The position numbers and the translations under genes were made by a program. Source: Eledone cirrhosa (lineage: Eukaryota). Taken from it: 64,000 nt of DNA. Within the stretch, counting starts at the first letter, position 1. The number at the start of each line of letters is the position of its first letter. Of the stretch, positions 45,888 to 53,199 are shown in pieces. Location of the stretch: assembly GCA_964016885.1 (NCBI GenBank), contig OZ024741.1, forward strand, positions 171,926,001 to 171,990,000, in the 5' to 3' direction. The notes below the pieces were generated by a model. The model had not been told where the DNA came from. It saw only the letters and a program-made list of their open reading frames with translations, and did no database searches.

Positions 45888-45981
<94 letters not shown>

Positions 45982-47084
45982 AGATTTGAATGGATACAGT
46001 TTAGTTGAAAGTAATTTATTGACACGTGTTTCTATAACAGTTACATAACCTAAAACAGCTATCTACAAACTTTTAGTTATGCAGACATTCAATATTTCAA
46101 TGTTATTATTTACTGTCATTTCATCAGAATAATATTACTGAGGACCTATTTAGTTTTTATAGAGAATATTAGGAGGGAGGGGTGAAGTTGTTAGAAGAAT
46201 AGTTGAAGGAGTGGTTTTTCGATAGCAGTGAGAATTCTTGGTGGCAGTGAGTAATTAGATTCCCATCTGTTGTTTTGACATTTTTTATAGAATATATTAT
46301 TGGTTATTTTTCTAAATCTATAGAAGGATTAGAGATAGTAAAGATATGCGTGGTTGGTTTTGTGTTTGCACTTAACATTCAGACTTAAATTTTTCTTTCA
46401 AGTGTACGTATTCTTTCACCCACGCATTCACACACAAATATATTTGCACACCTCTACAAAATACATATACTCACAATTCGCATATTCATACTTACACATA
46501 TATACACATGCATACACATATATATACACACATGTATTCATGTACATACATACGCGCTCATGTGTATACATTTTCATACTCAACTTATCTTTATATATAC
46601 ACACGTATAGACACACACATATATACATACACACTCTAGTCCATGTGTACACACATACACATACATACACATCCATATACACATACATACATACACATAT
46701 ACATATATGTATATATATACATATATATATATATACATATATACATATATATATATACATACACATACATATATACACATATATACATATACACACACAC
46801 ATATATATATATATAAGCACTTTAATACATGAATACACTTACATCTAACTATACACATCAAACATATATATATATTTACTTATTTATATACATTTTCACA
46901 TATATATACATACTTATGGACGTTTTTAGACACATTCATTATCGCATATTTGTACCTATTCTCATCAGCATATCTTTTCATTATTAGTATGGTAATTTAA
47001 GGTTATTAATATATGTTGAGAAGAGATTGTTTTTATATTTTTCTAACTAGATTAAGGTTTATATAGTTGGGGGATGTCCCTCTT

Positions 47085-49406
47085 TTATGTAATATTCTGC
47101 TTGTAGTGGGAAAAAAGGGTTTTAGTTCTGTGACGGCAGAATAATGTTCGTTCAATTCTGTTATTCAGCAGTTTCTTCTTGTGTGTGATTATGTAATAAA
47201 TCTCAAGATTACACAATTTGCAGAAATTTTGGCTCCTGGAAAAGCTTTGGGTTTTAGCTAATTTTTCCCATTTTAGGGTAAACTTTTGATTGCTATCCCT
47301 GAGCGTCCAAGCTTTTTCTGCTAAAGTTGTTACATTTCTTTGGCTCTGGTGTTTTATTGAGTAAGAATGCCTATACAATCGAGATTTAAACGATGTTGCC
47401 GTTGATCCCACGTAATACCACTCGTTGCCTCCGGATTTAATGGTACACTTATAAATAATATTTTTTTCCAGGCAGTTATTGCCGAGGGGGCAGTTGTCAG
47501 GATAGGTGCAGTTACAGTTGTGTACGTTGGGTTTTCTCTGGAGTAGTATTGCGGACGAACTTAGGTGTGGTTTATTTATGTTCTGTAGTGTATTGTCTAC
47601 TGTTTTTTGGGGGTTCTTTGTACTTAAGTTCTTAGTGTTTTCGTTTAACCTTCTAGTATTGATCTTTTTTATGTGTTGTTCAAGGTTTAACGCTGTAGAG
47701 TATGACAGTCTTATAGTGGTAGGGTTTAGGATTTTGTGGTATTTGTGTGATGTGGGAAAATGTCTTTTAATTATTTTAAAGAAGAGTACTGGTAAATTTG
47801 TACTAATGGAGCTATTGTATTCGGGGTTATACCATAAGTACTCTTTGCATCGCTTTCTATTAGTTTTGTTTGTTGGTTTACTGGTGTGCATACTATGGTA
47901 GTAAGTGTGGTTTGGTGTTGTGTTATTATATCTACCTATGTGGGATTTATTTTGGGTGTTTTGATTGTTCCCATCTATGTACTCTATTTTGTTGAGGTAG
48001 CCTGCTTTACTAAGGGCGTTATCGTAGTACTCGGCGTGTTCCTTAAATACTTGTATGTTAGAAGATAGACACGAGATTCTAAGGGAAATATTTTTAGGGA
48101 TAGATTTAATTATAGAGATGGGGTGGTTAGACCCAACATTTACGTATTTGAGATTTTCATTCAATTTATGAAACGGTTTAATCAAACCAGAGTTTAAATT
48201 GAGTGTGACATCCAGGAAGTTAACTACTTTAAGGTTGTATTCATATGTTATAGTTAGTCCTATTTCGAGTAGTAGTTTTCTTATATCTTTGCGTAGTTTT
48301 TCTAGTTTTTGGTTATTAAGGTTTTTAGCTAGGAGGAGAACATCGTCGCGGTATATTCCGCCGTGGAGATTGCTGAATTTTTCCTGGAGTCTAAAGGCGA
48401 TAAATAACCCCACAATATCAGTTATTTCCGCCGAATCGTTAGAGCCCATTGTTATGTCAAAGTTAGAGGGTCTATCTTTACGTACCCAATAACTGTTCTC
48501 AAATTTGACTATAGTTTTCCTAGCTTCTAATATAATCTTAATTTCATCGTTTGTAAGGTCAGAGTTATCCTTAGCAAACTTAATGGCTCTATTCAAAGTT
48601 TCAGGTGATATCGATGAGTAATATTCATCGATATCAAACTGGATAAACTTAGATTTATTCTTATTGCTAATGCTATTAAACCATCTTATTGCTTCTTGGG
48701 TCTTCCCCCAGAGTTTAATGTTAACCTTAGCCTTAATTTGGGGGATGATTCTATCTAAGATATATTTGCTTATTTTACCTATATCTGATTTAGAGGGGCA
48801 GATTAATCTAATTTTAGGGTCATTATCAAAGTTTACCTTGTGGTCCTTAAGATTGAAGGTGGGTACCGCCGGTAAGAGTGGTCCTGTCCTATCTTCGATT
48901 CCGAGATTTTTCACTATTTCGCATGCCTCATCATTGATGTGCTTAAGGGTTACTTCACTCGTTTTTCTATATTTTTTATGTAATTCTTTTCGAATGAGGT
49001 TGTTGTATGTAGTGCAATCCATAGTGTACAGGTTTGATGTTTTGTCCGCTTTTACTACAATTCCTTTGGTGTTTTTAAGGTCGTCCAGTAGTTTTTTTAT
49101 ATCTTTCTGTAATTTGCTGTTGGTGTTGCGTCCTTTGAATTTAATTTTAAGGATTAAGTTCATAAGGTCCTGCTCAAATGCATCTAATAGTGGGTTGGTG
49201 GGTGGGTTTTTACAAGTCCTAAAACCGAATTTGTTGTTTACACCACTTTCTAATGTTGAGTTCATACGGCTTCTATCATAGTGGAGCGTTTTCCACCTGA
49301 CACGTCGAATGAATTCATTAGTTTTTTGAATCATGCTCAATAAATATTCCTTTCTACCTTGGGTTGGTATGTTTTTGAGTGACATATCCAGGTAGTGTTT
49401 TTCCAT
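47085..49406 (-). CDS. Intact Penelope-like RT + GIY-YIG endonuclease, 773 aa
   Basis: FIQFDIDEYY, ITMGS, GIYRDD, VNFLDVTL, CNCTYPDNCPLGNNC, NIIYKC..YYVGST..FKSRLYRH, FCKLCNLE. Confidence 0.93.
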   Translation of the reverse strand: MEKHYLDMSLKNIPTQGRKEYLLSMIQKTNEFIRRVRWKTLHYDRSRMNSTLESGVNNKFGFRTCKNPPTNPLLDAFEQDLMNLILKIKFKGRNTNSKLQKDIKKLLDDLKNTKGIVVKADKTSNLYTMDCTTYNNLIRKELHKKYRKTSEVTLKHINDEACEIVKNLGIEDRTGPLLPAVPTFNLKDHKVNFDNDPKIRLICPSKSDIGKISKYILDRIIPQIKAKVNIKLWGKTQEAIRWFNSISNKNKSKFIQFDIDEYYSSISPETLNRAIKFAKDNSDLTNDEIKIILEARKTIVKFENSYWVRKDRPSNFDITMGSNDSAEITDIVGLFIAFRLQEKFSNLHGGIYRDDVLLLAKNLNNQKLEKLRKDIRKLLLEIGLTITYEYNLKVVNFLDVTLNLNSGLIKPFHKLNENLKYVNVGSNHPISIIKSIPKNISLRISCLSSNIQVFKEHAEYYDNALSKAGYLNKIEYIDGNNQNTQNKSHIGRYNNTTPNHTYYHSMHTSKPTNKTNRKRCKEYLWYNPEYNSSISTNLPVLFFKIIKRHFPTSHKYHKILNPTTIRLSYSTALNLEQHIKKINTRRLNENTKNLSTKNPQKTVDNTLQNINKPHLSSSAILLQRKPNVHNCNCTYPDNCPLGNNCLEKNIIYKCTIKSGGNEWYYVGSTATSFKSRLYRHSYSIKHQSQRNVTTLAEKAWTLRDSNQKFTLKWEKLAKTQSFSRSQNFCKLCNLEIYYIITHKKKLLNNRIERTLFCRHRTKTLFSHYKQNIT

Positions 49407-49623
49407 TGTTGTGGTTGCGTTTGCTGTGTGGGTTGCTCGACTTTACAGGAGGTAAATATACAGTATCTTCCGTTGTGTTGTAATATACATGGAACCGTCG
49501 AGCAAACTCTACGTGAGCTGATAATCTACTGTGTGTAATATTTATATTACAACACAACGGAAGATACTGTATATTTACCTCCTGTAAAGTCGAGCAACCC
49601 ACACAGCAAACGCAACCACAACA

Positions 49624-51946: not shown

Positions 51947-52898
51947 AAGAGGGACATCCCCCAACTATATAAACCTTAATCTAGTTAGAAAAATATAAAA
52001 ACAATCTCTTCTCAACATATATTAATAACCTTAAATTACCATACTAATAATGAAAAGATATGCTGATGAGAATAGGTACAAATATGCGATAATGAATGTG
52101 TCTAAAAACGTCCATAAGTATGTATATATATGTGAAAATGTATATAAATAAGTAAATATATATATATGTTTGATGTGTATAGTTAGATGTAAGTGTATTC
52201 ATGTATTAAAGTGCTTATATATATATATATGTGTGTGTGTATATGTATATATGTGTATATATGTATGTGTATGTATATATATATATGTATATATGTATAT
52301 ATATATATATGTATATATATACATATATGTATATGTGTATGTATGTATGTGTATATGGATGTGTATGTATGTGTATGTGTGTACACATGGACTAGAGTGT
52401 GTATGTATATATGTGTGTGTCTATACGTGTGTATATATAAAGATAAGTTGAGTATGAAAATGTATACACATGAGCGCGTATGTATGTACATGAATACATG
52501 TGTGTATATATATGTGTATGCATGTGTATATATGTGTAAGTATGAATATGCGAATTGTGAGTATATGTATTTTGTAGAGGTGTGCAAATATATTTGTGTG
52601 TGAATGCGTGGGTGAAAGAATACGTACACTTGAAAGAAAAATTTAAGTCTGAATGTTAAGTGCAAACACAAAACCAACCACGCATATCTTTACTATCTCT
52701 AATCCTTCTATAGATTTAGAAAAATAACCAATAATATATTCTATAAAAAATGTCAAAACAACAGATGGGAATCTAATTACTCACTGCCACCAAGAATTCT
52801 CACTGCTATCGAAAAACCACTCCTTCAACTATTCTTCTAACAACTTCACCCCTCCCTCCTAATATTCTCTATAAAAACTAAATAGGTCCTCAGTAATA

Positions 52899-53015
52899 TT
52901 ATTCTGATGAAATGACAGTAAATAATAACATTGAAATATTGAATGTCTGCATAACTAAAAGTTTGTAGATAGCTGTTTTAGGTTATGTAACTGTTATAGA
53001 AACACGTGTCAATAA
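52899..53015 (+). ncRNA. Type I hammerhead in the P2 3' region (mirror copy 46016-46132, minus strand)
   Basis: ttatt-CUGAUGA(52904)-ugacagu..acuguua-GAAA(52999)-c acgu-GUC-aataa; palindromic CACGUG stem III. Confidence 0.82.
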
Positions 53016-53162
53016 ATTCCTTTCAACTAAACTGTATCCATTCAAATCTTTCTATTTTTCTCCGGATTACCTTTGGAACTACAACTGGAACCGTCGAGCA
53101 AACTCTACGTGAGCTGATAATCTACTGTGTGTAATATTTATATTACAACACAACGGAAGATA

Positions 53163-53199
<37 letters not shown>

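What the first reader, a model, noticed from the sequence alone, without database searches (positions are those of the whole stretch)
45976..53170. 7.1-kb palindrome of two full-length head-to-head Penelope-like elements, one with an intact ORF
Seen: 3.5-kb arms, a 55-bp spacer and divergent ORFs whose start codons are 218 bp apart. The arms differ at only a few noticed sites (CPLG/CLLG, NPQK/NPKK, one A in a homopolymer, one base near 46013/53018). The spacer belongs to an 85-bp pLTR repeated at the right end. Established: PLEs often have short inverted 5' pLTR pieces. A whole-element inversion of this length is unusual, should be unstable, and read-through would give long dsRNA. Inference: one recent insertion event made both arms, and the family may still be active.
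Basis: partly seen in the sequence, partly recalled or inferred. Interest (0 to 1): 0.85.

Follow-up and report, generated by a model that had tools for sequence, protein, structure and literature searches.

The report
Penelope palindrome primed from both ends
This 7-kb mirror-image DNA is one insertion of a young Penelope-type jumping gene, and such head-to-head copies are routine in its family; they likely arise when both cut ends of the chromosome each copy the same RNA from two fixed start points.

Summary
The palindrome is there as described: 3,512-bp arms, a 55-bp spacer and 4 differences. It belongs to a young, (TA)n-targeting Hydra-clade Penelope-like family with at least 111 near-identical ORF matches. 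It is not unusual for that family. Head-to-head form was found in 75 of 116 mapped insertions, and two are longer palindromes with 62- and 125-bp spacers.

The useful result is a rule across the family. One outer end stops at a short site (S) and the other at a long site (L) 115 nt further on: 60 of 62 resolved cases, including 24 of 24 predicted in advance, and 16 of 16 in a second family. Both arms carry the same haplotype in 55 of 57 insertions. Neither arm contains the other in 31 of 61, which simple fold-back cannot give.

Likely mechanism: both target strands prime reverse transcription on one source transcript, and the two cDNAs are end-joined. No read spanning this locus was found. Earlier notes of this scan reached the same idea on other DNA of this genome.

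The parts
45872..45977 (.). Left (TA)n target flank, with one short interruption; unique sequence beyond it
45976..49487 (-). Inverted arm = unit positions 54-3566; its outer end is the short (S) end
47085..49406 (-). Intact 773-aa ORF: RT with RWK, DKT and YRDD motifs, CxCx5C linker, C-terminal GIY-YIG-type endonuclease
   Evidence: motifs compared with PMC8557442 section 11
46095..46127 (-). Mirror copy of the hammerhead-like core
49488..49542 (.). 55-bp unpaired spacer: 2 inserted bases plus unit positions 1-53; holds the head-to-head junction
49490..53170 (+). Direct arm: one 3,596-bp unit plus 85 bp of the next lap; its outer end is the long (L) end
49490..49574 (+). 85-bp direct repeat (residual pLTR), identical to 53086-53170
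49624..51946 (+). Right ORF, frameshifted by one extra A in an A run at about 51563 (652 aa, then a second frame with the endonuclease part)
52080..52560 (+). TA/TG microsatellite in the 3' UTR; identical in both arms, variable between insertions
52904..52936 (+). Hammerhead-like core with stem II and a weak stem III; stem I does not pair directly; no Rfam hammerhead match
   Evidence: layout compared by eye with File S2 of PMC8557442
53056..53170 (+). 115-nt one-sided tail between the S site (53055) and the L site (53170), the two inferred priming sites
53171..53197 (.). Right (TA)n target flank; unique sequence beyond it

Best explanation
The palindrome is a single insertion of a Hydra-clade Penelope-like retrotransposon, likely made by double target-primed reverse transcription on the transcript of one source copy. 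Shown: both outer ends are element 3' ends joined to (TA)n, one at site S and one at site L 115 nt further on, and all segments of an insertion share one haplotype. Inferred: the GIY-YIG domain cuts both strands of a TA repeat. Each 3' end anneals to a short UA run in the RNA (both sites end in TAT) and is extended, one from S and one from L, probably by the two halves of a dimer. The two cDNAs stop independently and are joined head to head by microhomology or templated end-joining. Here both ran about one full unit (3,512 and 3,681 nt), so the near-symmetry is the chance tail of the ordinary process. Whether one RNA molecule or two from the same locus is used, and whether it is circular or a tandem transcript, is open.
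For: End rule: 36 of 38 resolved in the first set and 24 of 24 in a set fetched after the prediction was written down (binomial p about 1e-7 for the held-out set). A second family with 40% amino-acid identity gave 16 of 16. Both exceptions have mirrored flanks, so they look like later duplications or assembly fold-backs. One template: 2 of 57 arm pairs are discordant at common polymorphic sites, against 45 expected with random partners; within-insertion differences are 2.1 per kb against 7.5 between insertions. Independence: the S arm reaches further upstream in 31 pairs and the L arm in 30. Junctions: 45 of 79 have 1-6 nt of overlap, 11 are blunt and 20 have inserts; all 13 inserts of 10 nt or more contain a piece of at least 9 nt copied from within 60 nt of the junction (no shuffled control). 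In vitro precedent: the anole PLE protein cuts and extends both strands, starts at two internal RNA sites that bound the tail, and is predicted to be a dimer (PMC11167929). Raw Illumina reads of another sample show L ends joined to TA (95 reads) and head-to-head junctions of other loci (22 and 9 reads, matched by eye).
Against: No intermediate or biochemistry exists for this family; the mechanism is read from insertion anatomy. No read or contig shows this locus's junction or its private base at 49563, so this copy rests on the assembly. None of 41 non-inverted insertions shows a clear stub of the second end, so second priming is not shown to be obligatory; these end at S in 30 cases, L in 8, and 3 are unresolved. 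PMC11167929 reports no difference in start site between strands in vitro, which does not by itself predict strict S+L pairing. Two RTs on one RNA would need strand displacement, which is untested. Loci were top-scoring hits that hold the 5' part of the ORF, so the proportions are not genome-wide rates.
Confidence: 0.75

Rival explanations
1. Self-priming or fold-back: one strand (cDNA, or an antisense RNA as proposed in PMC3846280) snaps back and is copied, and the endonuclease then resolves the hairpin at staggered S and L sites.
For: It explains identical haplotypes in both arms. In this locus the left arm is a subset of the right and the loop is only 55 bp. PMC3846280 (Discussion) argues for self-priming, and PMC8557442 attributes the tail to endonuclease resolution.
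Against: In 31 of 61 pairs the arm that reaches further upstream has the shorter outer end, so neither arm can be a copy of the other. Rescue needs resolution with random polarity (31:30). Loops would be about 2 kb at the median, with mostly 0-6 nt of homology.
Confidence: 0.13
2. This particular locus is a fold-back chimera or misassembly.
For: Perfect long palindromes are a known long-read artefact (own knowledge). No read support was obtained at this locus. Two sampled loci (L079, M074) do look like fold-backs. The extra A lies in a homopolymer.
Against: A fold-back mirrors ends and flanks. Here the ends are S and L, as in 60 of 62 insertions, the flanks differ, and the arms differ by two non-homopolymer substitutions, one private to each arm.
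Confidence: 0.06
3. Two separate insertions side by side, or two templates from different loci, were later homogenised by arm-to-arm gene conversion.
For: Palindrome arms can convert each other (own knowledge). 30 of 57 insertions have variants private to both arms.
Against: Direct tandem segments share private variants at a similar rate (36 in 41 kb against 51 in 71 kb). Older pairs with 9-34 differences remain concordant at all haplotype sites (L036, L045, L101, L106, M110). There is no TA or host DNA at the centre. Conversion does not explain the S+L rule.
Confidence: 0.04

Closest known systems
Hydra clade of endonuclease-bearing Penelope-like elements, e.g. Hydra-1_Obim (Craig et al. 2021, PMC8557442)
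   Same: Single ORF with RT and C-terminal GIY-YIG; RWK, DKT and CxCx5C motifs; no CCHH; (TA)n target; partial tandems, inverted 5'-truncated copy and one-sided tail.
   Different: A different family by eye from the printed Hydra-1_Obim protein. The unit is 3.6 kb rather than under 3 kb, the tail is 115 nt rather than 30-40, and hammerhead stem I is not canonical. The paper describes the inverted copy as 5'-truncated and gives no end-pairing counts in the passages I read.
PAc Poseidon element of Anolis (Frangieh et al. 2024, PMC11167929)
   Same: Both target strands cut and extended; two internal start sites bounding the tail; AT-rich target.
   Different: A different clade, with start sites inside the ORF. 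The paper does not link the two sites to opposite ends of one insertion or to inverted copies (parts 1-2 of 4 read).
Adineta vaga and Drosophila virilis Penelope inverted-pLTR structures (PMC3846280)
   Same: Head-to-head inverted repeats with a tail on one side.
   Different: The inverted parts described are mostly pLTR-sized, and self-priming on an antisense template is the proposed cause; the nesting test here disfavours it for this family.
LINE-1 twin priming (recalled, not read)
   Same: Both target strands prime on one RNA and give a 5' inversion with microhomology.
   Different: L1 arms copy non-overlapping parts of the RNA from a variable internal site. Here the arms copy the same sequence from two fixed sites, which gives true palindromes.

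Membership tests
Hydra-clade PLE | Single ORF with RT and C-terminal GIY-YIG endonuclease | tested here: met
   773-aa ORF. 300 homologues at E<=1e-20. It aligns end to end with 18 of them, one of which hits RVT_1 at 9e-6. The motif order matches the printed Hydra alignment by eye. The window protein itself has no Pfam or PDB sequence hit.
Hydra-clade PLE | RWK motif, and DKG changed to DKT | tested here: met
   RRVRWK and ADKTSN in the translation (definition)
Hydra-clade PLE | CxCx5C linker; CCHH absent; CxxC and CxH at the end of the endonuclease | tested here: met
   CNCTYPDNC, CKLC and CRH in the translation; absence of CCHH judged by eye
Hydra-clade PLE | Insertion into (TA)n | tested here: met
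   Nearly all outer ends listed run into TA repeats (by eye; L092 and L064 deviate)
Hydra-clade PLE | Canonical type I hammerhead in the pLTR | tested here: inconclusive
   Core with stem II and a weak stem III at 52904-52936; stem I not directly paired; no Rfam hammerhead match at E<=1; cleavage not testable
Hydra-clade PLE | Placement in the RT phylogeny with named Hydra elements | not tested
   The named reference proteins were seen only as supplement text; no tree was built
Endonuclease-bearing PLE insertion structure | Partial tandem (pLTR), inverted 5' copy, tail at one end | tested here: met
   the tail is 115 nt, longer than the 30-40 nt in PMC8557442
Naiad/Chlamys PLE | N-terminal endonuclease before the RT | tested here: not met
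   The endonuclease motifs are C-terminal

The most novel reading that the evidence does not exclude
Penelope-like elements insert through an asymmetric dimer that holds one RNA by its folded tail, places the two cut target strands at the two sides of that tail (S and L), and sends two reverse transcriptases along the same, possibly circular, template. The tail, the inverted copy and the tandem pLTR would then all be products of one reaction, and whole-element palindromes a routine output that seeds larger chromosomal fold-backs.
Probability: 0.4. Interest if true: 0.7.

Novelty: new member of a known kind. Interest (0 to 1): 0.45.

Why it matters
How Penelope-like elements finish an insertion is unresolved; PMC11167929 leaves the later steps unvalidated and PMC3846280 proposed self-priming. 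This family gives a countable rule (one S end plus one L end, one template, arms not nested) that favours double priming. It also has many copies with open reading frames, so the rule can be tested in vitro. The palindrome itself is ordinary for the family. The S+L end pattern is a practical way to tell real Penelope palindromes from assembly fold-backs.

Tried and rejected
Pfam and PDB sequence searches with the protein or its alignment gave nothing for the window protein. The structure prediction had not finished at the last try, so no fold search was run. Rfam gave only microRNA-type hairpin noise below the gathering scores.

A stem that brings S and L together appears in the best fold of the common family-1 tail (z -2.2). 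It is weak in the ensemble (28 of 200 shuffles as good; 0 of 32 distinct tails with 4 or more expected pairs). It is better in family 2 (6 of 200; 15 of 18), but absent from the window's own family-2 copy. The window's own family-1 fold depends on a private base. Kept as a lead only.

Target-site duplications were informative in only 3 of 62 insertions and cannot be resolved in pure TA, including here. Stubs of a second end in non-inverted copies were not found. Stalling in the tail after one lap was rejected: no excess of stops there (0.62 per kb). Circular versus tandem template is unresolved: 1 lap-shared site, 1 arm-shared site and 6 singletons in 4,386 bases.

No RNA holder was listed. 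Runs X1-X3 and X12 do not show this junction; contigs drop rare variants, so this is no evidence either way. No daughter copy of this locus was seen among the best 40 scored of 246 and of 975 candidates. A search of earlier findings by the tail sequence returned nothing.
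Full report
Observation. The structure is in the sequence as reported. The reverse complement of 45976-49487 matches 49543-53055 with 4 internal differences: two substitutions, one change at a C/A run boundary and one extra A. The spacer is 55 bp, 49490-49574 recurs at 53086-53170, and the ORFs start 218 bp apart. The left ORF is 773 aa and the right one is cut at 652 aa by the extra A. Taking 49490-53085 as the 3,596-bp unit, the right copy is unit 1-3681 (one lap plus 85 bp) and the left arm is unit 54-3566. 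Both outer ends are therefore 3' ends of the element, and both run into TA repeats with unrelated DNA beyond. The junction is unique in the assembly.

Identity. The protein has 300 homologues at E<=1e-20 among 8,000 candidates scored. It carries the motifs that PMC8557442 gives for the Hydra clade (section 11): RWK, DKT, CxCx5C, no CCHH, and a TA target. By eye it follows the printed Hydra alignment and is a different family from Hydra-1_Obim. No tree was built. A hammerhead-like core lies at 52904-52936, but its stem I does not pair canonically and Rfam did not score it.

Family. A search with the first 369 residues returned 111 matches at 99-100% identity, all the candidates that were scored, so this is a lower bound. 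I fetched 120 stretches of about 10 kb around top hits; after merging five overlapping pairs and adding the window, they gave 116 insertion chains, of which 75 are head to head. Of 101 ORF-spanning copies, 63 have an open frame of at least 765 aa. Both arms span the full ORF in 11 of 62 resolved pairs. That figure is inflated, because I picked seven stretch sets as visible pairs; a count by eye gives about 11 of roughly 96 insertions with two ORF starts head to head. L101 (62-bp spacer, shorter arm 4,054 bp) and L106 (125 bp, 4,559 bp) exceed the window's palindrome. With about 0.85 stops per kb, a spacer of 53 nt or less among 11 such insertions has a chance of about 0.39.

End rule. Outer ends fall at two fixed sites: S at unit 3566 and L at unit 3681, 115 nt apart, both ending in TAT next to the target repeat. 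In the first set, 36 of 47 head-to-head insertions were S+L, 1 was L/L, 1 was S/S and 9 were unresolved. I wrote the prediction down before mapping 40 further stretches; there, 24 of 28 were S+L, none was homotypic and 4 were unresolved. In both exceptions the mirror continues into the flanks up to the edge of the fetched DNA, as a fold-back artefact or later inverted duplication would. A second Hydra-type family, with a copy in this window at about 24527-27983 and 40% amino-acid identity, has its own two ends about 90 nt apart: 16 of 27 junctions were S+L, none homotypic, 11 unresolved, in 39 loci. Non-inverted insertions end at S in 30 cases, L in 8, with 3 unresolved, and show no stub of a second end.

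One template. At 13 common polymorphic sites, only 2 of 57 arm pairs disagree, each at one site, against 45 expected with random partners; in the held-out set it was 0 of 21 against 16.7. Within-insertion differences are 2.1 per kb against 7.5 between insertions, with the microsatellite and two homopolymer sites masked. The partner arm was the nearest sequence in 40 of 57. The window's arms share 3 variants found in no other mapped locus. Conversion after insertion is an unlikely cause: direct repeats share private variants at a similar rate, and older pairs with 9-34 differences stay concordant.

Not simple fold-back. If one arm were copied from the other, the arm reaching further upstream would also have the longer outer end. 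It has the shorter end in 31 of 61 pairs and the longer in 30. Junctions mostly show 1-6 nt of overlap (45 of 79), blunt joins (11) or inserts (20), and the 13 long inserts all contain locally copied pieces (no control). This fits end-joining of two independent cDNAs. A fold-back that is later trimmed at S and L with random polarity is not excluded.

Mechanism. Shown: end geometry, end pairing, shared haplotype, no nesting, junction types. Inferred: a double-strand cut in (TA)n, priming of both 3' ends on the transcript of one source at S and L, independent stops, and joining. PMC11167929 shows both-strand cleavage and extension, two start sites bounding the tail and a predicted dimer for another clade, but saw no strand difference in start site. 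Arms run seamlessly through up to 2.7 units, so the template is circular or a long tandem transcript; one search did not decide this. A tail-closing stem that would bring S and L together is only a lead.

Is this locus real? Probably. It obeys the S+L rule, has unmirrored flanks and has arm-private substitutions. Raw reads of another sample show other head-to-head junctions and L ends joined to TA, so the form exists outside long-read assembly. Age: 2-4 differences in 3,512 bp would be at most about 0.1-0.2 million years on the Octopus vulgaris scale in PMC13282606 (JC 0.09 = 25 million years). This is an upper bound that assumes a similar host and ignores copying and assembly errors.

Literature seen. 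PMC8557442: passages, section 11 and parts of the supplement. PMC11167929: parts 1-2 of 4; its supplements were not read and may hold end-pairing data. PMC3846280: part 1 of 5, passages and Discussion. bioRxiv 10.64898/2026.07.22.740005: passages, nothing on inverted copies. PMC13282606: passages. Six searches listed no paper stating the S+L pairing or double priming for these elements. Older subscription papers on Penelope are probably missing from the library. The one-sided tail and the inverted 5' copy are already in print. Several earlier notes of this scan reached the same double-priming reading on short stubs elsewhere in this genome. I had stated my reading before seeing them, and they are not independent support.

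Verdict. A real-looking, young, ordinary product of a new Hydra-clade family. The value lies in the family statistics, which make a mechanism testable. Interest 0.45.

Noticed in passing
window 24527-27983: Older, broken copy of a second Hydra-type family (40% aa identity), with a short inverted L-end stub on the left and an S end on the right; the same end rule holds in its relatives.
   Followed up: yes
window 24024-24252, 28158-28384, 39927-40720, 40882-41267, 41658-42459, 43957-45367: Several short inverted-repeat inserts next to TA runs, some with hammerhead-like cores; probably stubs of Penelope-like families.
   Followed up: no
L079 and L074/L075 (G000:C2, about 216.85 Mb and 312.47 Mb): Insertions with like ends whose flanks are also mirrored up to the edge of the fetched DNA: larger inverted duplications or assembly fold-backs centred on the element.
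   Followed up: partly
window 49600-51500 against runs X4, X5, X6: Runs labelled as three other organisms hold the ORF at about 99-99.8% identity; X5 has one contig matching 1,885 bases with 4 differences. Close relatives, horizontal transfer, mislabelling or contamination cannot be told apart here.
   Followed up: partly
unit 3346-3545 (window 52835-53034): Arms stop about twice as often around the hammerhead-like core (22 stops, 1.47 per kb, against 0.6-0.9 elsewhere). The interval was chosen after looking, so this is weak.
   Followed up: partly
window 51563: The same extra A appears at 6 other loci of the first set: recurrent slippage or a sequencing error in the A run, so the right ORF may not be truly broken.
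   Followed up: partly
L024, L064, L125: Apparent direct target duplications of 23, 15 and 85 nt where the TA run is interrupted (3 of 62; 0 in shuffled pairs).
   Followed up: partly
window 7771-8736, 12934-13518, 21003-21494, 33833-34864: Open frames that look by eye like LINE fragments and a PIF1-type helicase fragment (labels recalled). No host gene was recognised in the window.
   Followed up: no
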